This document shows, piece by piece, positions 1,854 to 9,985 of a DNA stretch of 64,000 nucleotides (positions are counted from its first letter, which is position 1; each line of letters begins with the position of its first letter). The translations under genes and the position numbers were made by a program. Below the pieces are notes generated by a model. It ran no database searches. It was not told the origin of the DNA and saw only the letters and a list, made by a program, of their open reading frames with translations. The stretch covers positions 75,946 to 139,945 of the forward strand of contig CALRFT010000001.1 in assembly GCA_943356745.1 (NCBI GenBank). Reading direction: 5' to 3'. The stretch is from Parcubacteria group bacterium (GTDB taxonomy: Bacteria; Patescibacteriota; Minisyncoccia; Phycocordibacterales; CSBR16-119).

Positions 1854-1889
1854 ATATAAGAATAAGTATACATAAAAAGCCGGAATAAA

Positions 1890-1920
1890 AAATACCCTAC
1901 TAAAGTAGGGTATTTTTTAT
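1890..1920. terminator. intrinsic terminator (TACCCTAC-TAAA-GTAGGGTA + T6)
   Basis: Stem-loop plus T-run overlapping the cupin gene stop. Confidence 0.65.
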
Positions 1921-2318
1921 TCCGTTGTAAGACCATCAAAGTCTTCTTCGTTTTGCTGCGCCTCTTCTTTTGTAACTCGTTCTATTTTATCTTTATGATG
2001 TGGAGGTGTATATATAGTATACATTTTCAAATCTTCACCCTCACTTGTATTGATAATATTATGTTGAGAACCAGCAGGAATAATAACAACATCACCATCA
2101 GAAACTTTATACTCTGAATCATTTATAATAACTTTTCCGTTTCCAGATTCAAATCTAAAAAATTGGTCATTTTTATGATGAGTTTCAAGTCCGATTTCCT
2201 CCAAAGGCTTCAGTGACATGAGAACTAATTGAAGACTATGGCTTGTATATAAAACTTTTCGAAAATAATTATTTTCTTGTGTGAGATTTTCAATATTTTC
2301 TTTATATCCTTTTTTCAT
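1917..2318 (-). CDS. cupin-domain protein
   Basis: 133 aa; small beta-barrel cupin-like segment (GDVVIIPAGSQHNIINTSEGEDLKMYTIY). Confidence 0.6.
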   Translation of the reverse strand: MKKGYKENIENLTQENNYFRKVLYTSHSLQLVLMSLKPLEEIGLETHHKNDQFFRFESGNGKVIINDSEYKVSDGDVVIIPAGSQHNIINTSEGEDLKMYTIYTPPHHKDKIERVTKEEAQQNEEDFDGLTTE

Positions 2319-2359
2319 AATTTCATTGTATCAGATACAGATAACAATAGACACCTGAA

Positions 2360-4135
2360 CTAATTAATCTCTTCAAATAAATACAAGTATCCCCCATACC
2401 CTTGTGATTCCATTTCCTCCTTTGGAATAAAGAGAAGCGAGGCAGAGTTTGTACAAAAACGTTGTCCTCCCTCCTCCACGGGACCATCATTAAAAACATG
2501 TCCTACGTGACCTCCCTCACTACGTACTTCTGTGCGAGTCGTAGAAAGTGAGTTATCTTCATGAAGTGTTACGGAATTATCATCAATAGTTCTCCAAAAA
2601 CTTGGCCAACCTGTTCCTGAATCATATTTGTGGGTACTTGAAAAAATTGGTTTTTTTGTGACTATATCAACATAAATTCCGTCTGCTTTATTGTCCCAGT
2701 ATTTATTATTAAAAGGTGATTCAGTTCCACCTTCAGCAACAACATGATATGCAAGCGGATCGAGATTTTTAAGCATTTCAGCAATTTCTTCTTCTGTATA
2801 GTCGTAATCTTTTTTAATTTGTTTATCAGTAGTAGTTTGTTCAAGTTCTAAAAATTTAAGAGCAGCGTCCTTTGCCCAATTCTCTTCAACAAACCCACTT
2901 CTCCCAGATGCTTTTTTGTAATTCTCATAATAGTCAGGAGCTTTTTTGTAATAGTCCTGATGATATTCTTCAGCCTCAAAAAAACTTACAAATGGAATAA
3001 TTTGTGTTGCAACAGAGTCCTCGAAAAGGTTACTTTGTTCTAATCTATTCAAAGAATCAAGAGCAACTTCTTTTTGTTCATTGTCATGATAAAAAATTGC
3101 AGTTGTATATTGAAATCCCTTATCAGCAAACTGCCCCTCTGTATCTGTTGGGTCAATATGAGACCAATATATATCCAATATTTCTTCTGTTGAAATAATA
3201 TTTGGATCATATATTACTTGAACAGCTTCACGATGCCTGGTCGTACCTTTTGACACTTTTATATATGAAGCATCTTTTGAATCACCTCCAGAATATCCAG
3301 AAACTGCATCTATGACTCCAGGAACTTCTTGGAAATAAGCTTCTGTACACCAAAAACATCCACCTGCAAGTGTTATCACTTGGTATTCAGAAGACATTGT
3401 TTGAGGAGAAAATTTTTCTATCAAATTATCTTCGAATTTAATACTTGCACCGTAGCCAGAATCAAGAATAAACGACTCTAGTTTTTTGTCATAACCACTT
3501 ACGATTAGAATACCAACAACCATAATGAGAACTCCAAATACTTTTTTGATATCCCCAGCAGTTTGCATATGTGCTGTTATTTTATTAACTAGTTTTTGAC
3601 CAAAATACGCAACAAGCAGAAGTGACAATACTAGACCGAGAGTAAATCCAAGAAGATAAAACATACCCAGACCAAGACTTGCAGGAAGAGCTGTTGCAAT
3701 AATAAAAAGATATGTTGGAGAACATGTAGTAAAAACGGGCCCAAGAGCAAAACCGATAACCATATCACCTTTATAGCTCTTCTTTTGAAAACCGCTACCA
3801 ATAACCTTATTTCCAGCAATATTTATTTTTTGAACAAAAGGAATTCGTGTCCAAAGTGAAGGAAACGCAATAGCAATACCAACGAAAATAATTATTGAAC
3901 CGGAAATAATTGTCCAAAATGTTTGTGGGATTGAAATAAATAAAGTTGTTGCTTTCAAAAGCAAGGTGAACACAATAACCGAAATAGCAAGAGAGGTTAT
4001 TACAACAACTGCACGCTTTGAAACTTTGTTTTCACCAGCCTCTGAAGCACCAATAACAATCGGCAAGAGCGGAAGTATGCAAGGCGCAATCACCGTCAAC
4101 ATTCCAGCAATTATAGATATAAGAAAGAAAATCAT
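2360..4135 (-). CDS. msrAB: membrane-anchored CcdA/DsbD-like – MsrA – MsrB fusion (peptide methionine sulfoxide reductase A/B); alternative upstream start at 4186
   Basis: N-terminal 6-TM CcdA domain with Cys in TM1 (APCILPLLP) and TM4 (FTTCSPTY); MsrA motif GGCFWCTEA; MsrB motifs GTGWPSF and HVGHVFNDGP. Confidence 0.85.
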   Translation of the reverse strand: MIFFLISIIAGMLTVIAPCILPLLPIVIGASEAGENKVSKRAVVVITSLAISVIVFTLLLKATTLFISIPQTFWTIISGSIIIFVGIAIAFPSLWTRIPFVQKINIAGNKVIGSGFQKKSYKGDMVIGFALGPVFTTCSPTYLFIIATALPASLGLGMFYLLGFTLGLVLSLLLVAYFGQKLVNKITAHMQTAGDIKKVFGVLIMVVGILIVSGYDKKLESFILDSGYGASIKFEDNLIEKFSPQTMSSEYQVITLAGGCFWCTEAYFQEVPGVIDAVSGYSGGDSKDASYIKVSKGTTRHREAVQVIYDPNIISTEEILDIYWSHIDPTDTEGQFADKGFQYTTAIFYHDNEQKEVALDSLNRLEQSNLFEDSVATQIIPFVSFFEAEEYHQDYYKKAPDYYENYKKASGRSGFVEENWAKDAALKFLELEQTTTDKQIKKDYDYTEEEIAEMLKNLDPLAYHVVAEGGTESPFNNKYWDNKADGIYVDIVTKKPIFSSTHKYDSGTGWPSFWRTIDDNSVTLHEDNSLSTTRTEVRSEGGHVGHVFNDGPVEEGGQRFCTNSASLLFIPKEEMESQGYGGYLYLFEEIN

Positions 4136-4145
4136 ATATTCAATA

Positions 4146-4661
4146 TTATTGAATCTTTGAAAGAAGATTTTCCAGACTACCTCCACCGCTCCATTTTGTA
4201 ATCATATTACCTTGCGCATCAACTTGAACCAAAGTATGCTGTGTTGTTACTCCATATTTTTTCTTGAGTTCAGTCTCAGCATCATAGTCAACTTGTAAAA
4301 TAGAAACATTTTCTGGTATTTCACTCATGTTCTTTTTAATATCTGCGTCAAGTCCACGACATGAAGGACACCAAGATGCGTGGAAAAATAGGACAACGTC
4401 TCCAGATTCTGCTCGTGCTAGTTTTTCTGGAGCATATGATTCATATGATCCCACCATCATATCTTTTGTCATAGAATCATCCATTTTATTTTCCATATCT
4501 TTATCGTCCATCATTGTATCCATGTCTTTCTCAGACATCATTGATTCTTCTGAAGACATATCTTTCATTGCTGTATCCATATTTTTTTCCCCACCAGCAA
4601 ATACAGCTATTGCAATAATCACCAAAATAATTACTACTCCAATCACAAGTTTTTTATTCAT
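4146..4661 (-). CDS. membrane-anchored extracytoplasmic thioredoxin (WCPSC) with Met-rich linker
   Basis: N-terminal TM helix; ~42-aa stretch with 13 Met; thioredoxin fold CxxC motif WCPSC. Confidence 0.8.
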   Translation of the reverse strand: MNKKLVIGVVIILVIIAIAVFAGGEKNMDTAMKDMSSEESMMSEKDMDTMMDDKDMENKMDDSMTKDMMVGSYESYAPEKLARAESGDVVLFFHASWCPSCRGLDADIKKNMSEIPENVSILQVDYDAETELKKKYGVTTQHTLVQVDAQGNMITKWSGGGSLENLLSKIQ

Positions 4662-4751
4662 ACTAATATTTATTTATATTTAATAATACATACCAAGTAT
4701 AAACAAAAGAAAAATAAATGTAAAGTAAACTTTACATTTATTTTGGGGAAA

Positions 4752-5114
4752 CTATAAATTTTTATCACTCCAAATTCTTGTTATAAACTTTGTCACCACC
4801 ATACCAATCAAAGTAAATACAAGCCAAGGATCAACAGTGTGTGTATAACCTTGAATAATAATACCAAGCACTAAAATTCCAGACCCAACAAGAAAAGCGT
4901 TTCTTCCCGCAAGAGATTTGTGTTGATACTCTCTTTCGTCTAATGATGTTTCTCTCATAACGAAAGTTGCCAAAAGACCAAACAAGGCAAGAGCTGTTGC
5001 AAGCATACAAATCACTACCATATCCGGCATCCAAAAACCAAAAGGATTCAAAAGAAGCACAGCTATGAGAATAAGCGCCAAAGTAACAATAGATTCTTTA
5101 ATATTATTTTTCAT
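4752..5114 (-). CDS. small membrane protein (DUF2178-like, co-operonic with XRE regulator); alt start 5138
   Basis: Three or four hydrophobic helices; immediately downstream of the HTH gene. Confidence 0.5.
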
Positions 5115-5316
5115 ATGATATGTTAAATATTTTTTCAACTGGAACTTTGAAAAAATGTGAGATTTTTAATGCGAGTAAAATTGAAGGTGTATAATTCCCT
5201 TTTTCTAAAGCAATAATTGTTTGCCTACTTACACCCACAAACAAAGCAAGCTCTTCTTGTGTTGAGCCTTTGGCAATTCTGTATGTACTTACTTCATTGT
5301 GAATTTTTTCTTTCAT
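5104..5316 (-). CDS. XRE-family helix-turn-helix transcriptional regulator; alt start 5355
   Basis: HTH_3-like segment [36 protein letters not shown]. Confidence 0.7.
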
Positions 5317-5379
5317 ATAAGTTTGTTTTTGATTATACATATTGAAGTTATACATGTAAATAAATGTCTTTAAAAAGAT

Positions 5380-5409: not shown

Positions 5410-7143
5410 TTACCACCACAAACCTGGTGTTTGAAGTGATTTCATTACACTTCGAGTAATTGGACCAAAATATCCAACAGATGGATTAATATTGTGTTTC
5501 TTTTGATATTCACTAAGCGCACTTTCTGTTTGATTTAAAAACAATCCTGTAGATCCTGCTGGTATTGAATATCCTTGCTGTATCAGAAGATTCTGGAGTT
5601 GTTTTACATCATCTCCTTTCATTCCATATTTTAAATCCCGAATATTTACCACTGGAGTTTTAGAAACATTTTGAACAGACTCATATTCACACAAATCTTG
5701 TTTATGAGCTGAAAATCTTTCATAGTTAACAGCTTTTGGATCTTTACATCCACGATATGTCCCCGAAGAAGAATTATTTGTCTCTTCTGAAATAGTTGTA
5801 AAATTCCAAGTTGTTGTATCTGAAATTCCAGCGAAACTGTTCCCTGCCTCATCATCAAAAGCTGTTGCGTCTATTTGGACATAATATGCGGTTCCTTTTT
5901 CAAGATTTTCTGAAATAGAAACAGTGATTATATTTGTTCCATCACCAGAAATCTGCCCACTTGTTACGTCTATTGATTCTATCAACACATTTTCCTGGGA
6001 AGAATACAGCAGTATGTTTCCGCTTTGAATAACAACATTCTCGCTAAATTCAATAGTGAGATCAGTATTAACACCAACATTAGTCGCGTTATCAGATGGA
6101 GAAAATGTTTCAATAATTGGGTTTGTAAATTCACCAGTTGTAAAATTCCAAGTTGTTGTATCTGAAATTCCAGCAAAACTGTTCCCTGCCTCATCATCAA
6201 AAGCTGTTGCGTCTATCTGAATATAATATTCTGTATTTTCATTTAAATTTTGAGAGGGGTTGATTGTAATCATATCGGTTCCCGTACCTGTCACTTGCCC
6301 ACTTGTTATATCTATTGATTCCACAAGGGAATCATTCAAGGTTGTGTATATATTCACATAACCCGTCTGAACTTCCACAGACTCAGAAAAAGAAATACTT
6401 AAATTTGAAGTTGTGGAAACACCAGTTGCATTGTTAGATGGAGAAAAAGTATCAGCTAGCGGATTAACAACATCAGCATCAAGATTAGTTATAGTAATAT
6501 CATCAATGTAATCAACACCTACAGAAGCTCCGTAGCCGGCTGTGTATTGGACCTTTCCAGATGTGTAAGTTGAGTCAGAAACAGTTGCGAGTGTCGTATA
6601 ATTCGTACCATCATCTGAGTATTCAAAAGTTAAATCAGTTCCTACAGCAGAAGCACGAAACCATCGAGGCTCTGCTTTTGAAAGACTCCCACTCCACAAA
6701 GCTGTATAACTTGAAGGACCAACCTCCCAAATATAGACAGAACCTGAAGAATAGACATGGAACAAATATCCTTGTCTTGCTCCAACTGAATTAATAACCC
6801 CTGTGTCAGTATCCTGAGCACGAAGAGTAAATCCTGAACGTCCTAAATTACTTGAATAAGATTGTTTCCAAACAATCTGCTGATCAGATGAAGTTCCGAA
6901 ATTATCAAAAATAGCTCCAGCGATAACACCAACCTGTGTTACAGCTCTCATTGACTTACCAAGAATATCGTCATTTTGAACATCAAAGGTTCCAGCGGTG
7001 ACAGTAATCCCCGCTGGAGTTGTTCCTATTGTGTCACTTTCGAAATTATAACTAGCATCAGCAAAAACGAAACCCGGCAACAGCAAAGAAAAAACAACAA
7101 ATAACACAAGTGGTTTTAAAAATTTATTGGAAATTTTAATCAT
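5410..7143 (-). CDS. secreted surface protein: N-terminal ~200-aa lectin-like domain (paralogous to next gene), two tandem Ig-like repeats, C-terminal peptidoglycan-binding (PG_binding_1-like) domain
   Basis: Signal peptide; internal ~110-aa direct repeats; C-terminal LKYGMKGDDVKQLQNLL…GYFGPITRS. Confidence 0.8.
   Translation of the reverse strand: MIKISNKFLKPLVLFVVFSLLLPGFVFADASYNFESDTIGTTPAGITVTAGTFDVQNDDILGKSMRAVTQVGVIAGAIFDNFGTSSDQQIVWKQSYSSNLGRSGFTLRAQDTDTGVINSVGARQGYLFHVYSSGSVYIWEVGPSSYTALWSGSLSKAEPRWFRASAVGTDLTFEYSDDGTNYTTLATVSDSTYTSGKVQYTAGYGASVGVDYIDDITITNLDADVVNPLADTFSPSNNATGVSTTSNLSISFSESVEVQTGYVNIYTTLNDSLVESIDITSGQVTGTGTDMITINPSQNLNENTEYYIQIDATAFDDEAGNSFAGISDTTTWNFTTGEFTNPIIETFSPSDNATNVGVNTDLTIEFSENVVIQSGNILLYSSQENVLIESIDVTSGQISGDGTNIITVSISENLEKGTAYYVQIDATAFDDEAGNSFAGISDTTTWNFTTISEETNNSSSGTYRGCKDPKAVNYERFSAHKQDLCEYESVQNVSKTPVVNIRDLKYGMKGDDVKQLQNLLIQQGYSIPAGSTGLFLNQTESALSEYQKKHNINPSVGYFGPITRSVMKSLQTPGLWW
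5805..6474 (-). repeat. tandem direct repeat (2 × ~335 bp) encoding two Ig-like domains inside the 5410..7143 gene
   Basis: Near-identical nucleotide blocks (e.g. gttgtatctgaaattccagc[g/a]aaactgttccctgcctcatcatcaaaagctgttgcgtctat) at ~5810-5890 and ~6150-6230. Confidence 0.8.
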
Positions 7144-7194: not shown

Positions 7195-7351
7195 AAAAAA
7201 CCACCCGAAGTTTTGGGTGGTTTTAAAATAGCTTGTATATTTTATTATAAATATTAATATTTAGAAATTTTAAATTAACTTATGATTAATAATCTAAATT
7301 CTGTAAAGTTATATAATTCCTAGTGACCGGACCAAAATACCCATTAGCCGG
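7195..7351. repeat. ~157-bp segment (gene 3′ end + terminator hairpin AAAACCACCCGAAGTTTTGGGTGGTTTT) duplicated at 10216..10372
   Basis: Near-identical in both copies, including the C-terminal …NGYFGPVTRNYITLQNLDY codons. Confidence 0.85.
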
Positions 7352-9985
7352 ATTAATATTATTCATACTTTGGTATTTAGCCAGTGAGGCTTTAGTGAGA
7401 GGACCAAAATAGTCTGTTTCTCTTCCAGGTGAACCAGTTCCAACTTCAGTAAGTAAAGAACCATTTGTATTAAGAAATATCTGTAATGCTTTTACATCTT
7501 CACCTTTACTACCCAATGTCAGATCACGGATAAAAATATTCAAAGGTAATCCCACCGCCGGAGAATCTTGCACAACACCAGCTTCTTTTTGTAATGCTTG
7601 GAGCTGTAATTTAAGTTGATGTAATTGTTTTATAAGGCTTTCATATGACGGCAGAGGTACTTCTTTTTGACTACGAGACCCAGAACTTACAATAGTTGTT
7701 GGATAAATAACTTCTGAAGGTATTTCTTCAGCGACAGAAAATGAAATTATATAGTCTTCAGTATTTGGATTACCTACACTATCAGTACATTTAACATAAT
7801 ACGTATAACTATTACCATTTTCTAAGCTATTTACAACAACACTATGTGAAGTCCCTCCTGTTGTACTGAAAGTAACATCCATTGATGCATATGCCACAGC
7901 TGAAGTCGTATCATATTTACAAGTTGCTGTTTCGTTTGTAGTAAGAGATAGGGTTGTTGAAGTAGTATCAACTGAAAGTTCTGCTGAAGGAGCACCGGAA
8001 GAAAGAATTGGAGGGACGGCAGAAGAAACTATCTCATTAATAAATATTTCTGCCGGTAAATTATAGACACTACTGTCTGTTGGTACAACTAAACCGTTCG
8101 CAGTATCTCCATACCCTAACGAAACAGTAGCATCGCCACTCAGTGGTGAATTAAGTGTAATAGTAATTATATTATCAGATGTTCTCGCAACACTAGATAT
8201 TGCCACAGACACACCATTATCTTCCACCCTAAAACCTTGAATACCACTTGTTGGCAAAAGAGGTAGTGTGTTATCAGAAAACATAATAGCTATCTTATTT
8301 CTGGTGATATTTTCTTCTGAAATTAAATATTGAGGACCTCTTCCATCATCCCCGTTATAGAAATGATATTCTATCGCTGCCCACCAACGATTTGCTGCAA
8401 TTTCTATTTCTTCATTTGTTCTAAAATGAAGACCATCATTAGAGAGATTTACATCATATAAAGATGGACCAGCTAACACATTACTATTATCTTCCCAAGC
8501 ATCAAGTTGGGCTAGACGAATATTATTTAAATCCACAGCTGGTTCACCAGAAAATTCACCTATCTGTGCAACTACTGTTTTTAAACCAAAGTCATTATAT
8601 ATATTATTAACCATTGTATCTAAACTACTATTATAAGTAGTTCTTGAGGTTGCATTAGCAACATCAGTTTCGCCTTGCCAAAAAAGAACAGCTTTCATTT
8701 CCCCTATAGCATTTATACGACTTGCTAATGTTGTGTATAAACTTTGTCCTTTTTGCCACTGCGCAATACTTGTACCTCCCTGCGGTGGATCAGTAATGAA
8801 TGCAACAGGAACATCCTGACTTTCCATCAATCGAGTTGCGACAATTGGCCACACAGTTCCACCCACACCATCAGCTGGATCTGTAAGTTCAGCCCATGAA
8901 CCTGTAAACTTAGAGGCTTTCAGTGTAGGGTGAGAATAAACTTGATTACTAAGTCCTCTACCACTTGCATTACTTTGCCCAGCAATGGCATATATATCTC
9001 CCACACCGACATAAGCAGCAGAATCATTAACATCAGAATTATTACTAAACCTGACTTCTATACTTCCTTGACCAATATCTTGATTTTCTAAAACACCAGA
9101 GAATGTACCTCCACTTAAAGAAGCATCGATTGTGGTCCATGTACCGCCATTAAACCTAGCCTCTATTGCAACTGGTGAGCCAGTATATGTTCCACTTATA
9201 GAGATATCTGATTGATTATTATTATCTCTTTGAAAAACTTGATAATCAGAAGGACTTGTTATTGCTATAGCATCTGGTACAAAAGCCTGTGTTTCATAAA
9301 CAATATCATCTACATACATATCTCCCACACCTGAGCCATACCCAGCACTATATTGAACAAGACCTGAAGTGTAAGTACTATCAGTAACAGTGGTACCTAA
9401 TTGAGTATAATTAGTTCCATTATCAGAATAATAAAAACTAAGCTGGTTACCAGACACAGTTGCCTTAAACCACCGTGGGCTTTGAGCTGTTAGTGAAACT
9501 TCAGCAAGAATATCAAATGTGGTAGAGGTAACTTTATATACTCTTACCTTATTAGCACTCGCACTCGCGTCAGTATGATTAACCTGAAAAAGATAACCTT
9601 GTTTAAGTCCAGCGATTGCAGAATTACCCGATTGGGCACGCAAGGTAAAACCATGTCTACCACCCCCACTTTGATAAGCTTCTTTCCATGTCACCGTCTG
9701 ATCTGTATCCGAGGTAAAATTATTAAAAGTAATAGCAGCTGTATTTGCAGGTCCTGTGAGTCCAGTCGCTGTTAGTGAGTTACCTAACACAGCCTGATTG
9801 GCAACCTGAAATGTTCCAGTATTAGCTGTTGTATTAGCGGGAGTTTGACCAACAGTATCACTATTAAAGTTATAAGTTACTGTTGCGGCATATAAATTAA
9901 TAGTATTAAGTAAAAAAGTTATCAAAAAAAATACTAAACAAAGTAATATTTTTTTAGTTATTTTCAAAAATAAGTTATTGTACAT
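7286..9985 (-). CDS. surface-anchored carbohydrate esterase: lectin-like N-domain + SGNH/sialate-O-acetylesterase (DUF303/SASA)-family domain + Ig-like region + C-terminal peptidoglycan-binding domain
   Basis: Signal peptide; motifs AGQSNASGRG, FWQGETD, DGLHF typical of SASA/SGNH esterases; C-terminal PG_binding_1-like domain. Confidence 0.8.
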   Translation of the reverse strand: MYNNLFLKITKKILLCLVFFLITFLLNTINLYAATVTYNFNSDTVGQTPANTTANTGTFQVANQAVLGNSLTATGLTGPANTAAITFNNFTSDTDQTVTWKEAYQSGGGRHGFTLRAQSGNSAIAGLKQGYLFQVNHTDASASANKVRVYKVTSTTFDILAEVSLTAQSPRWFKATVSGNQLSFYYSDNGTNYTQLGTTVTDSTYTSGLVQYSAGYGSGVGDMYVDDIVYETQAFVPDAIAITSPSDYQVFQRDNNNQSDISISGTYTGSPVAIEARFNGGTWTTIDASLSGGTFSGVLENQDIGQGSIEVRFSNNSDVNDSAAYVGVGDIYAIAGQSNASGRGLSNQVYSHPTLKASKFTGSWAELTDPADGVGGTVWPIVATRLMESQDVPVAFITDPPQGGTSIAQWQKGQSLYTTLASRINAIGEMKAVLFWQGETDVANATSRTTYNSSLDTMVNNIYNDFGLKTVVAQIGEFSGEPAVDLNNIRLAQLDAWEDNSNVLAGPSLYDVNLSNDGLHFRTNEEIEIAANRWWAAIEYHFYNGDDGRGPQYLISEENITRNKIAIMFSDNTLPLLPTSGIQGFRVEDNGVSVAISSVARTSDNIITITLNSPLSGDATVSLGYGDTANGLVVPTDSSVYNLPAEIFINEIVSSAVPPILSSGAPSAELSVDTTSTTLSLTTNETATCKYDTTSAVAYASMDVTFSTTGGTSHSVVVNSLENGNSYTYYVKCTDSVGNPNTEDYIISFSVAEEIPSEVIYPTTIVSSGSRSQKEVPLPSYESLIKQLHQLKLQLQALQKEAGVVQDSPAVGLPLNIFIRDLTLGSKGEDVKALQIFLNTNGSLLTEVGTGSPGRETDYFGPLTKASLAKYQSMNNINPANGYFGPVTRNYITLQNLDY

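What the first reader, a model, noticed from the sequence alone, without database searches (positions are those of the whole stretch)
2360..4661. Self-contained extracytoplasmic Met-oxidation repair module: Met-rich anchored thioredoxin + CcdA–MsrA–MsrB single-chain fusion
Two co-directional, nearly abutting genes encode (i) a membrane-anchored thioredoxin (WCPSC) whose linker holds 13 Met in ~42 residues (MDTAMKDMSSEESMMSEKDMDTMMDDKDMENKMDDSMTKDMM) and (ii) one polypeptide fusing a 6-TM CcdA/DsbD electron conduit (Cys in TM1 and TM4) to MsrA (GGCFWCTEA) and MsrB (GTGWPSF, HVGHVFNDGP). CcdA + extracytoplasmic Trx + MsrAB are known as separate proteins in Streptococcus pneumoniae, and Trx-MsrA-MsrB as PilB in Neisseria. 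Fusing the membrane electron transporter directly to MsrAB is unusual. The Met-rich linker could be a sacrificial oxidant sink that the neighbouring reductase regenerates, analogous to Met-rich proteins encoded next to msrPQ. This would matter for an obligate surface-associated bacterium lacking cytoplasmic redox capacity.
Basis: partly seen in the sequence, partly recalled or inferred. Interest (0 to 1): 0.6.

Follow-up and report, generated by a model that had tools for sequence, protein, structure and literature searches.

The report
Membrane-tethered methionine repair module in Paceibacteria
Two adjacent genes in an uncultured ultra-small bacterium encode a cell-surface system that repairs oxidised methionine; it is a new fused arrangement of a pathway already known from streptococci, and its thioredoxin sits on a methionine-rich tether that may also mop up oxidants.

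Summary
On the minus strand lie an anchored thioredoxin (4146..4661, WCPSC, 13 Met in 42 residues) and, 10 nt downstream, one ORF (2360..4135; the true start is ATG 4135, not GTG 4186) joining a 6-TM CcdA, MsrA and MsrB. It is not an assembly artefact: the fusion is intact in over 120 protein clusters, about 38 species genomes and four independently assembled 98.5%-identical strains. All five Cys are invariant, and K/R counts place MsrAB outside.

The fusion was seen only in Patescibacteria (Paceibacteria-type). Its CcdA subfamily often carries C-terminal extracytoplasmic domains (DipZ-like), and one relative (L037) keeps MsrAB, Trx and CcdA-DipZ as separate genes.

The Trx gene abuts the fusion in all 36 loci where it could be scored. 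Its linker is unconserved in sequence and predicted disordered. Its composition matches the hypochlorite scavenger MrpX, and its Met spacing argues against copper motifs. Five of 36 orthologues are not Met-rich.

Verdict: a new variant of the known CcdA–Etrx–MsrAB pathway. The oxidant-sink idea is plausible but untested. "Self-contained" and "lacking cytoplasmic redox capacity" are unsupported.

Extras: a conserved HTH/DUF2178 pair, a conserved palindrome at the trx promoter, and a Trx with His replacing the cis-Pro.

The parts
2360..4135 (-). ccdA-msrA-msrB single ORF (591 aa plus stop). The true start is ATG 4135; the ORF list extends it to GTG 4186.
   Evidence: Homologue ORFs start at the residue equivalent to M1, 1-10 nt after the trx stop.
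3386..4135 (-). CcdA/DsbD-type 6-TM thiol:disulfide transporter domain (residues 1-250). C19 lies in TM1 and C138 in TM4. A conserved post-TM6 helix (about 215-245) belongs to this module.
   Evidence: Pfam DsbD_TM and DsbD_2 above cut-off. Hydropathy and K/R counts. Both Cys invariant in 121 sequences. The post-TM6 segment is shared with the DipZ-like relative in L037.
2921..3385 (-). MsrA domain (residues 251-405). GCFWC holds C260 (catalytic) and C263.
   Evidence: PF01625 E 1e-57; TIGR00401 172.8 bits against a cut-off of 108. PDB MsrAB hits. Cys invariant.
2771..2920 (-). MsrA-MsrB interdomain linker (residues 406-455).
   Evidence: Lies between the two HMM matches. 73% mean identity across homologues.
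2363..2770 (-). MsrB domain (residues 456-591). Catalytic C561 sits in RFCTNS. Thr508 occupies the recycling-Cys position and there are no Zn-binding CxxC pairs.
   Evidence: PF01641 E 3e-40; TIGR00357 165 bits against a cut-off of 113. T508 invariant in 121 sequences.
4146..4661 (-). Membrane-anchored thioredoxin (171 aa).
   Evidence: PF00085 47.5 bits against a cut-off of 23.5. The AF2 Trx domain has pLDDT of at least 95. Foldseek best hits are thioredoxins. The gene abuts the fusion in 36 of 36 loci where it could be scored.
4593..4649 (-). N-terminal signal anchor of the Trx (residues 5-23, preceded by MNKK). It may be cleavable after AVFA, which is undecided.
   Evidence: Hydropathy 3.3 and K/R on the N-terminal side.
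4452..4592 (-). Met-rich, charged, predicted-disordered linker (residues 24-70; 13 Met).
4359..4373 (-). Trx active site W97-C98-P-S-C101.
   Evidence: translation. W97, C98, P99 and C101 invariant and S100 nearly invariant in 67 sequences.
4711..4744 (-). Conserved palindrome/hairpin with a 15-bp stem and 4-nt loop. The invariant core ATGTAAAG-N4-CTTTACAT lies at 4718..4737 and a T-tract follows at 4700..4710. It probably terminates the HTH-DUF2178 unit and/or acts as an operator.
   Evidence: RNA dG is -13.1 kcal/mol (z -5.5). Outer stem positions covary in 29 loci.
4696..4724 (-). Promoter-like site for trx-ccdA/msrAB: TTTACA, 17 nt, TATACT. The -35 lies inside the right arm of the palindrome.
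   Evidence: 10 of 12 matches. The -10 TATACT/TACACT is conserved at a fixed distance in 29 loci.
4752..5114 (-). DUF2178 4-TM membrane protein (120 aa), conserved immediately upstream. A possible sensor partner of the HTH; this is an inference.
   Evidence: Precomputed PF09946 on homologues, all 120 aa. Synteny in about 25 loci. Conserved motifs.
5104..5355 (-). XRE-type HTH_3 regulator. This is the maximal ORF; the probable start is ATG 5316 (70 aa). A promoter-like site lies at 5360..5332.
   Evidence: PF01381 E 1e-12. Synteny. Conservation begins at M 5316. Promoter scan gives 11 of 12 matches.

Best explanation
This is an extracytoplasmic, thiol-based methionine-sulfoxide repair relay of the CcdA–Etrx–MsrAB type, rebuilt so that the membrane electron conduit and the reductase form one polypeptide.

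Inferred electron path: cytoplasmic NADPH, thioredoxin reductase and cytoplasmic thioredoxin (none encoded here) reduce the C19/C138 pair of the CcdA domain. That pair reduces the C98/C101 pair of the membrane-anchored thioredoxin outside the cell. The thioredoxin swings on a roughly 47-residue disordered tether and regenerates MsrA (C260–C263 disulfide) and MsrB (C561 sulfenic acid, with no resolving Cys), which hang from the outward-facing C-terminus of CcdA. The enzymes reduce Met-S-SO and Met-R-SO in surface proteins.

What is shown and what is inferred: the domain identities, invariant cysteines, outward topology (by charge bias and homology), strict gene pairing and conservation are shown. 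The direction and partners of electron transfer are inferred from the characterised S. pneumoniae, S. gordonii and F. nucleatum systems.

Secondary claim (about 0.4): the Met/Lys/Asp/Glu-rich tether is an MrpX-like sacrificial oxidant sink that the neighbouring MsrAB regenerates in cis.

Tertiary claim (about 0.35): the conserved upstream XRE-HTH/DUF2178 pair controls the trx promoter through the conserved palindrome.
For: - **Domains:** all domains score above curated cut-offs. The closest solved structures are MsrAB fusion enzymes.
- **Cysteines:** five Cys are invariant in 121 sequences and no other conserved Cys exists.
- **Topology:** K+R averages 3.5, 5.7 and 3.4 in loops 1, 3 and 5, against 0, 1.0 and 0 in the N-terminus and loops 2 and 4. 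The closest CcdA relatives carry C-terminal Redoxin+Thioredoxin_10 (DipZ-type) or DUF3179 domains.
- **Gene pairing:** the Trx gene abuts the fusion in all 36 loci where it could be scored.
- **Not an artefact:** the fusion is intact in over 120 clusters at 70-94% identity, in about 38 species genomes and in four independently assembled 98.5%-identical strains.
- **Unfused relative:** L037 has anchor-MsrAB, a Met-rich Trx and CcdA-DipZ as three genes.
- **Linker composition:** Met is a median 16.5% in 36 synteny-defined orthologues. In 112 homologues the linker is 19.4% Met and about 44% charged, against 20% Met and 44% charged in MrpX.
- **Linker pattern and specificity:** one orthologue's linker hits TIGR02953 penta_MxKDx at E 2e-6. 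Met spacing is non-random, with MM and a 6-7 residue period enriched. The linker has pLDDT below 50. Met-richness is specific to the Trx; the MsrAB anchor linker in L037 is Thr/Glu-rich.
- **Regulation:** the HTH/DUF2178 synteny and the conserved palindrome overlapping the -35 are.
Against: - No experiment exists on any member of the clade.
- The donor (TrxA/TrxB) is not in the window, and its presence in the genome was not checked.
- Topology rests on the charge rule and homology, not on a dedicated predictor or assay. The AF2 model of the fusion was unusable (mean pLDDT 53).
- Direct CcdA-to-Msr transfer that bypasses the Trx cannot be excluded.
- For the sink idea: 5 of 36 orthologous linkers have background Met content, so Met-richness is dispensable for the relay. 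The window's own linker gave no TIGR02953 hit, and the one orthologue that did is below that model's cut-off of 41 bits. The 112-sequence sample is biased towards Met-rich sequences by word-based retrieval.
- The Trx is atypical: His at the cis-Pro position, Phe at the buried Asp, and His at Trp28. Its redox behaviour cannot be assumed to be Trx-like.
- The palindrome may be only a terminator.
Confidence: 0.72

Rival explanations
1. The relay works as described, but the Met-rich segment is only a flexible hydrophilic spacer. Its Met content is a lineage-specific compositional quirk with no antioxidant role.
For: The linker sequence is not conserved and its length varies from 31 to 80 residues. 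Five of 36 orthologues have 0-4% Met yet keep the Trx and the fusion. The linker is predicted disordered.
Against: Met enrichment is 8-14 times background. It persists through complete sequence turnover, in the unfused L037 arrangement and in the inter-domain linker of double-Trx variants. Met spacing is strongly ordered: z is +5 at distances 1, 6 and 7 and about -7 at distances 2-4. No other ORF in the window and no neighbouring anchor linker shares the trait. The composition matches a proven scavenger.
Confidence: 0.3
2. The Trx-like protein handles a metal (Cu(I), Ag(I), Zn or an Fe-S cluster). The Met-rich tail captures soft metal ions, and Cys98, Cys101, His142 and His94 form a binding site made possible by loss of the cis-Pro.
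For: Invariant His142 replaces the cis-Pro, and invariant His94 flanks the CxxC. From established knowledge, not tested here: the cis-Pro prevents metal binding by Trx active-site thiolates, and Met-rich segments are common in periplasmic copper proteins.
Against: Across 36 linkers there is one His and no Cys. The MxM, MxxM and MxxxM spacings typical of Cu(I) sites are depleted about 5- to 9-fold (z about -7). No copper-resistance genes lie nearby. The invariant partner is a CcdA-MsrAB.
Confidence: 0.08
3. The main role is nutritional. Surface MsrAB reduces free methionine sulfoxide from the environment so that a methionine-auxotrophic cell can import Met. This is not exclusive of protein repair.
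For: In S. pneumoniae the same pathway is needed for growth with free MetSO (PMC3914529). CPR bacteria are generally amino-acid auxotrophs (background knowledge). An MFS transporter lies downstream in this strain.
Against: The MFS gene is not conserved next to the module in the wider clade. MsrB enzymes act poorly on free Met-R-SO (PMC13488963), yet the MsrB domain is the most conserved part, at 86% identity. This model does not explain a Met-rich tether.
Confidence: 0.1
4. The fusion is an assembly or frameshift artefact, or a pseudogene.
For: None found.
Against: The ORF is uninterrupted in the window, in over 120 clusters, in about 38 species genomes and in four separately assembled strains. 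All catalytic residues are invariant.
Confidence: 0.01

Closest known systems
Streptococcus pneumoniae CcdA1–Etrx1–MsrAB2 surface system (also S. gordonii, and F. nucleatum Trx–CcdA–MsrAB–ModRS)
   Same: It has the same three components in one locus: a CcdA membrane conduit, a membrane-tethered extracytoplasmic thioredoxin and an MsrA–MsrB fusion exposed outside the membrane. The inferred electron path from cytoplasmic Trx is the same. As in F. nucleatum, a regulator is genetically linked.
   Different: Here CcdA and MsrAB are a single polypeptide, with CcdA replacing the MsrAB membrane anchor. The Trx is held by an uncleaved-type anchor plus a Met-rich disordered tether rather than a lipid anchor. 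It is a classical-Trx-like domain, not TlpA-like, with WCPSC and His at the cis-Pro position. The linked regulator is an XRE-HTH/DUF2178 pair, not a two-component system.
Neisseria PilB (Trx–MsrA–MsrB, reduced by DsbD)
   Same: Both fuse relay components with MsrA-MsrB in the cell envelope. The MsrA and MsrB domains are homologous (PDB 3bqe and 1l1d families).
   Different: PilB fuses the thioredoxin, not the membrane transporter, to MsrAB. Here the Trx stays a separate protein and the transporter is the fused part.
DipZ-type proteins (CcdA TM domain plus C-terminal Trx-like plus Thioredoxin_10, e.g. M. tuberculosis DipZ) and E. coli DsbD
   Same: The closest CcdA relatives have exactly this architecture. 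They share the same 6-TM core, the post-TM6 helix and a C-terminal extracytoplasmic fusion point.
   Different: The fused client is the terminal enzyme (MsrAB) instead of a Trx-like carrier.
MrpX / BcrX methionine-rich MXKDX-repeat peptides with MsrPQ (YedYZ)
   Same: The composition is nearly identical, about 20% Met and about 44% charged residues. Both are extracytoplasmic and encoded next to a methionine sulfoxide reductase. One orthologue's linker gives a weak TIGR02953 hit.
   Different: Here it is not a free peptide but the tether of a thioredoxin. Its partner is thiol-based MsrAB rather than molybdenum MsrP. The window's own linker does not match the family model, and no oxidation data exist.

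Membership tests
CcdA/DsbD transmembrane thiol:disulfide transporter (Pfam DsbD_TM PF02683 / DsbD_2 PF13386) | Profile match above the curated cut-off | tested here: met
   DsbD_TM 35.9 bits against 27.1; DsbD_2 28.3 bits against 24.9.
CcdA/DsbD transmembrane thiol:disulfide transporter (Pfam DsbD_TM PF02683 / DsbD_2 PF13386) | Six TM helices with one essential Cys in TM1 and one in TM4 (Pro-Cys context) | tested here: met
   Six hydrophobic segments. C19 lies in APCILP and C138 in TTCSPT, both invariant in 121 sequences.
CcdA/DsbD transmembrane thiol:disulfide transporter (Pfam DsbD_TM PF02683 / DsbD_2 PF13386) | N- and C-termini on the extracytoplasmic side | tested here: met
   Charge bias is 12.6 against 1.0 K+R. 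Relatives carry C-terminal Trx-like domains. No dedicated topology predictor or assay was available.
CcdA/DsbD transmembrane thiol:disulfide transporter (Pfam DsbD_TM PF02683 / DsbD_2 PF13386) | Accepts electrons from cytoplasmic thioredoxin and reduces an extracytoplasmic Trx-fold protein | not testable with these tools
   Supported only by strict adjacency of a Trx gene in 36 of 36 scored loci.
MsrA (PF01625 / TIGR00401) | Profile match above cut-off and a catalytic Cys in GCFWC | tested here: met
   172.8 bits against 108.1. C260 and C263 invariant.
MsrB (PF01641 / TIGR00357) | Profile match above cut-off and a catalytic Cys in RxCxN | tested here: met
   165.3 bits against 113.05. C561 invariant.
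MsrB (PF01641 / TIGR00357) | Recycling Cys in the CGWPSF motif (2-Cys subclass only) | tested here: not met
   Thr508 is invariant. The same is true of 30 of 40 nearest exported MsrABs in other phyla. This is therefore a 1-Cys MsrB, which is still a member of the family.
Thioredoxin (PF00085) | Profile match above cut-off, Trx fold and a WCxxC active site | tested here: met
   47.5 bits against 23.5. Model pLDDT is at least 95 and the best Foldseek hits are thioredoxins with TMt 0.72-0.76. WCPSC is conserved (W97, C98, P99, C101 invariant; S100 nearly invariant).
Thioredoxin (PF00085) | Conserved cis-Pro (E. coli P76) and buried Asp26 | tested here: not met
   His142 and Phe92 occupy these positions. 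His142 is invariant in 67 sequences. The equivalog model TIGR01068 scores 37.7 bits against a cut-off of 96.8. The protein is a Trx-fold protein but not a canonical thioredoxin.
MrpX / pentapeptide MXKDX repeat protein (TIGR02953) | Profile match above cut-off (41 bits) | tested here: not met
   The window linker gives no hit. Orthologue P0289 scores 27.5 bits at E 2e-6.
MrpX / pentapeptide MXKDX repeat protein (TIGR02953) | Exported, about 20% Met plus about 44% charged residues, encoded next to a MetSO reductase | tested here: met
   This shows resemblance in kind, not homology.
MrpX / pentapeptide MXKDX repeat protein (TIGR02953) | Rapid oxidation by HOCl and re-reduction by the partner reductase | not testable with these tools
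   Requires biochemistry.

The most novel reading that the evidence does not exclude
Paceibacteria carry an inducible, self-regenerating antioxidant device on the cell surface. A disordered MrpX-like methionine 'brush' is built into the tether of an atypical thioredoxin (cis-Pro replaced by His). It scavenges HOCl and peroxide catalytically. A CcdA–MsrAB single chain recycles it in cis using cytoplasmic NADPH. The whole unit is switched by an XRE-HTH/DUF2178 membrane sensor pair acting on a conserved palindromic operator that doubles as the upstream terminator.
Probability: 0.3. Interest if true: 0.65.

Novelty: new variant of a known kind. Interest (0 to 1): 0.5.

Why it matters
Extracytoplasmic Met-SO repair has been studied almost only in pathogens. 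This locus shows that a large clade of ultra-small, uncultured bacteria keeps the pathway and compacts it.

The transporter is fused to the terminal enzyme. That gives a natural 1:1 CcdA:client construct for studying how CcdA hands electrons outward.

If the Met-rich tether is a sacrificial sink, it would be the first link between the MrpX-type scavenging idea, so far tied to molybdenum MsrPQ, and the thiol-based MsrAB pathway. It would also be the first case where the sink is part of the electron carrier itself.

The invariant His at the thioredoxin cis-Pro position is a testable oddity in a very well studied fold.

None of this overturns current understanding. It extends a known system.

Tried and rejected
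- **AF2 model of the fusion.** The alignment of 68 sequences at 71-94% identity was too shallow. Mean pLDDT was 53 and pTM 0.36, so I used the model for nothing.
- **Rfam scan.** The whole window yields only tRNAs and no riboswitch or known leader near the locus.
- **NCBIfam on the isolated linker.** No family matched at E up to 10.
- **PDB sequence search for the CcdA domain.** Nothing matched at E up to 1e-5; only the Msr domains hit.
- **Literature searches.** Patescibacteria plus methionine sulfoxide reductase returned nothing relevant. CcdA plus MsrAB plus fusion found no described CcdA–MsrAB fusion. A CcdA topology search returned nothing useful.
- **Copper-binding reading of the linker.** Rejected on the scarcity of His (one in 36 linkers), the absence of Cys, and depletion of MxM, MxxM and MxxxM spacings.
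- **Artefact or frameshift.** Rejected.
- **Cupin and MFS genes as part of the module.** Rejected. Neither is syntenic in the wider clade. The cupin gene lies on a 475-bp segment that 98.5%-identical strains lack.
- **Motif scan for CcdA or Trx genes near exported MsrABs of other phyla.** The regex was too crude to use.
- **Independent CcdA–Msr fusions built on distant CcdA families in other phyla.** I could not test this, because only the best-scoring hits are listed by the search tools.
Full report
**1. What is there**

Both genes lie on the minus strand.

The thioredoxin ORF is 4146..4661 (171 aa). It reads MNKK, then a 19-residue hydrophobic segment, then the Met-rich stretch, then a domain with WCPSC.

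The second ORF is listed from GTG 4186 and would overlap the Trx gene by 41 nt. The sequence, the 120 closest homologues, 36 syntenic loci and independent gene calls in near-identical strains all point instead to ATG 4135. That start gives 591 aa and lies 10 nt after the Trx stop.

Domain matches are clear.
- Pfam gives DsbD_TM and DsbD_2 (both above gathering score), PMSR (E 1e-57) and SelR (E 3e-40) on the long ORF.
- Pfam gives Thioredoxin (E 2e-12) on the short ORF.
- NCBIfam msrA and msrB domain models are well above their cut-offs.
- The best solved relatives are the MsrAB fusion enzymes 7e43, 5fa9 and 3e0m.

The quoted Met-rich string holds 13 Met in 42 residues.
- Window ORFs average 2.0% Met, and the next-richest 42-residue window anywhere has 5 Met.
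- The binomial probability is about 1e-12, or about 2e-8 after correcting for all windows.

**2. Not an artefact, and how widespread it is**

- The 120 best protein clusters (70-94% identity, about 600 aa) all have the length and MsrA/MsrB domains of the fusion, and nearly all carry a precomputed CcdA-domain hit. Named sources are Parcubacteria, Paceibacterota and Patescibacteria MAGs.
- A scan of one genome per species found full-length matches (query residues 1 to about 587) in about 38 species. All were Patescibacteria by record title.
- Four contigs from four different samples are 98.5% identical to the window and carry the intact fusion with the same neighbours.
- In an alignment of 121 sequences, five cysteines are invariant and no other column is Cys-rich. 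They are C19 and C138 (CcdA), C260 and C263 (MsrA GCFWC) and C561 (MsrB RFCTNS).
- The MsrB position that holds the recycling Cys in many enzymes is invariantly Thr (GTGWPSF), so this is a 1-Cys MsrB. The same Thr is found in 30 of 40 of the nearest exported MsrABs from other phyla. It is therefore a trait of that exported MsrAB clade, not of the fusion.

**3. Topology**

Hydropathy gives six membrane segments. TM4, which bears a Cys, is less hydrophobic than the rest.

Averaged over 121 sequences, K+R counts are as follows.
- Loops 1, 3 and 5: 3.5, 5.7 and 3.4.
- N-terminus, loop 2 and loop 4: 0, 1.0 and 0.

The positive-inside rule therefore puts the N-terminus and the C-terminal MsrAB outside.

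This agrees with two further points.
- From established knowledge, the CcdA/DsbD core has both ends extracytoplasmic.
- The closest relatives of this CcdA carry C-terminal Redoxin+Thioredoxin_10 (DipZ-type) or DUF3179 domains.

The Trx has K/R on the N-terminal side of its single hydrophobic segment, giving an N-in, C-out orientation. Whether that segment is cleaved after AVFA cannot be decided here.

I had no dedicated topology predictor, and the AF2 model of the fusion was too poor to use.

**4. Origin of the fusion**

I searched 1.84 billion cluster representatives with the CcdA domain alone.
- The subfamily is small: 1207 hits at E up to 1e-3.
- Among the best 150, about 87 are stand-alone proteins of about 240 aa.
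- About 40 are 500-616 aa proteins.
- Only one full-length representative (P0124) plus three fragments carry the MsrA motif. P0124 has both PMSR and SelR domains.
- The other long relatives carry CINC or CPLC motifs. The six I scanned carry Redoxin+Thioredoxin_10 (DipZ-type), Redoxin alone, or DUF3179 domains.

This fits a single, tight clade and probably one fusion event.

Outside that clade, the nearest MsrAB sequences have a signal peptide or a single anchor instead of CcdA. They share about 50% identity and come from Bacillaceae, Vibrio, Desulfobacterota, Omnitrophota, DPANN archaea and others.

One Paceibacterota genome (L037) shows the unfused state in the order below.
- Anchor–MsrAB (418 aa, with a Thr/Glu-rich linker).
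- A Met-rich anchored Trx (191 aa).
- CcdA–Redoxin–Thioredoxin_10 (574 aa).

Its CcdA part, including the conserved helix after TM6, is clearly the same module as in the window. The simplest reading is that MsrAB replaced the DipZ-type C-terminal module and lost its own anchor.

**5. The thioredoxin and its tether**

A WCPSC Trx gene abuts the fusion in all 36 loci where it could be scored, usually 1-4 nt upstream.

The AF2 model gives pLDDT of at least 95 for residues 70-171. For most of residues 19-68 it gives pLDDT below 50 with no secondary structure. Foldseek places the domain among classical thioredoxins.

In the 36 synteny-defined orthologues the linker behaves as follows.
- It is 31-80 residues long and not alignable.
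- Median Met content is 16.5%, with a range of 0-28%. The window has the highest value.
- 21 of 36 reach at least 15% Met, and 5 of 36 are below 8%.
- Across the 36 linkers there is one His and no Cys.

In 112 homologues from the protein search, the composition is M 19.4%, K 17%, E 13% and D 13%. That sample is biased towards Met-rich sequences by word-based retrieval.

This matches the description of MrpX, the hypochlorite-scavenging periplasmic peptide recycled by YedY/MsrP: 20% Met and 44% charged residues (PMC4436054).
- One orthologue's linker hits that model (TIGR02953) at E 2e-6, but below its cut-off.
- The window's own linker does not hit it.

Met spacing is far from random.
- Distances 1 (MM) and 6-7 are enriched, with z about +5.
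- Distances 2, 3 and 4 are depleted 5- to 9-fold, with z about -7.

The scarcity of His, the absence of Cys and the scarcity of MxM and MxxM argue against a copper-type Met motif.

Met-richness is specific to this protein. No other ORF in the window shares it, and the MsrAB anchor linker in L037 does not either. In double-Trx variants the Met-rich stretch again precedes the CPSC domain.

**6. Mechanism**

The best-supported reading is the pathway demonstrated in S. pneumoniae: cytoplasmic TrxB/TrxA, then CcdA, then surface Etrx, then MsrAB2 (PMC3914529). [quoted passage not shown]

Here the conduit and the terminal enzyme form one chain. The carrier Trx is tethered beside them by a flexible arm roughly 47 residues long.

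From established knowledge:
- MsrA with GCFWC can form the C260–C263 disulfide.
- A 1-Cys MsrB needs its sulfenic acid reduced directly by the thioredoxin.

The strict retention of a separate Trx gene argues that CcdA does not reduce the Msr domains directly.

The steps of electron transfer are inferred. The parts list, residues, orientation and linkage are shown.

The system is not self-contained. It needs a cytoplasmic thioredoxin system, which is not in the 64-kb window and which I could not look for in a whole genome.

The tether as a sacrificial sink regenerated in cis is attractive, for the reasons in section 5. It is unproven, and some orthologues lack Met-richness. I put it at about 0.4.

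**7. Things found outside the given coordinates**

(a) An XRE-type HTH gene and a 120-aa DUF2178 membrane protein gene sit directly upstream of trx in about 25 loci at 57-81% and 45-80% identity. They are the conserved neighbours. The downstream cupin and MFS genes are not.

(b) The 90-nt spacer before trx holds a palindrome, found in 29 loci.
- The core ATGTAAAG-N4-CTTTACAT is invariant and unique in the window.
- The outer stem positions covary, with 3-4 Watson-Crick pair types per position and 22-27 of 29 loci paired.
- The RNA hairpin has dG -13.1 kcal/mol and z -5.5, and a T-tract follows.
- The right arm contains the -35 TTTACA of a promoter-like site whose -10 (TATACT or TACACT) keeps a fixed distance.

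So a terminator for the HTH-DUF2178 unit and the trx promoter overlap. The invariant 8-bp half-sites could also be the operator of the HTH. A TTATCCAC motif, the same sequence as the DnaA-box consensus, is conserved just upstream in most loci but is degenerate in the window.

(c) The Trx is atypical.
- Invariant His142 aligns with the cis-Pro76 of E. coli thioredoxin.
- Phe92 aligns with the buried Asp26.
- Invariant His94 aligns with Trp28.

The cis-Pro is described as highly conserved in thioredoxins (PMC9529593). I have no explanation for the replacement. It keeps a small probability alive for a metal-related function.

**8. Novelty and verdict**

All components and the pathway are known. 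The following are new as far as the tools and the searchable literature show.
- The CcdA–MsrAB single chain. It is not among the fusion types tabulated in a 2026 review (PMC13488963), and no paper in the library links Patescibacteria with Msr.
- An MrpX-like Met-rich tether on the thioredoxin of a thiol-based Msr system.
- The cis-Pro-to-His thioredoxin.
- The conserved regulatory architecture.

I could not rule out independent CcdA–Msr fusions on distant CcdA families in other phyla.

I file it as a new variant of a known kind, of moderate interest (0.5).

Noticed in passing
window 4696..4752 (minus strand); the same region upstream of trx in L001-L046: A conserved cis-architecture occurs in 29 loci. 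It consists of a TTATCCAC motif (identical to the DnaA-box consensus, degenerate in the window), a hairpin with invariant core ATGTAAAG-N4-CTTTACAT and covarying outer stem, a T-tract, and a -35/-10 promoter whose -35 lies inside the hairpin's right arm. The terminator and promoter overlap, and the site may also be an operator for the adjacent HTH.
   Followed up: partly
window 4752..5355 (minus strand): An XRE-type HTH_3 regulator (about 70 aa, probable start 5316) overlaps by 11 nt a 120-aa DUF2178 membrane protein. That protein has conserved motifs LLLNPFxFWMPD, DER...H..LAGRNAFL and VDPWLV. The pair is syntenic with trx-ccdA/msrAB in about 25 species and may be a sensor/regulator pair for the module.
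   Followed up: partly
window 4146..4661, residues F92, H94, H142: The thioredoxin lacks the canonical cis-Pro (invariant His142 in a QHT motif), the buried Asp26 (Phe92) and Trp28 (invariant His94). It is still modelled as a classical Trx fold. The functional meaning is unknown.
   Followed up: partly
window 1899..2373: A 475-bp segment carries the cupin gene (1917..2318) and the last codons of msrAB. In four 98.5%-identical strains (L081-L084) it is replaced by 33 bp. It is a strain-specific indel whose left boundary falls inside the strong terminator hairpin at 1881..1924.
   Followed up: partly
L037 3947..7578: A Paceibacterota genome has the unfused arrangement: anchor-MsrAB (418 aa), a Met-rich anchored Trx (191 aa), and CcdA-Redoxin-Thioredoxin_10 (DipZ-like, 574 aa, CINC). 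It is a likely picture of the pre-fusion state.
   Followed up: yes
proteins P0125-P0265 (relatives of the CcdA domain): The same small CcdA subfamily is repeatedly fused at its C-terminus to DUF3179 (CPLC motif) or to Redoxin+Thioredoxin_10. The CcdA-DUF3179 fusion suggests that DUF3179 is an extracytoplasmic redox client.
   Followed up: partly
proteins P0272, P0273, P0276, P0278, P0294, P0302: These are tandem double-thioredoxin variants (270-295 aa), several with lipoprotein-like signal sequences. In P0294 and P0302 the Met-rich stretch lies between the two Trx domains, directly before the CPSC domain.
   Followed up: no
window 5410..7143 and 7286..9985 (minus strand): Two large secreted proteins share an N-terminal domain and a C-terminal PG_binding_1-like repeat. 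The first contains an internal duplication (5794-5887 against 6136-6229, about 96% identical between copies in related strains).
   Followed up: no
L038 (CAYGGQ010000168.1, 1851 bp): This contig is labelled 'uncultured Gammaproteobacteria' but encodes a MsrB end 79% identical to the Paceibacteria fusion. It is probably a mis-binned contig. Several 'Candidatus Saccharibacteria' titles on fusion-bearing MAGs may likewise be automatic labels.
   Followed up: no
L081 12502..13897: An ECF-type sigma factor gene overlaps a 275-aa ORF with no Pfam hit (a possible anti-sigma factor). It lies about 2.7 kb downstream of the module in near-identical strains, beyond the left end of the window.
   Followed up: no
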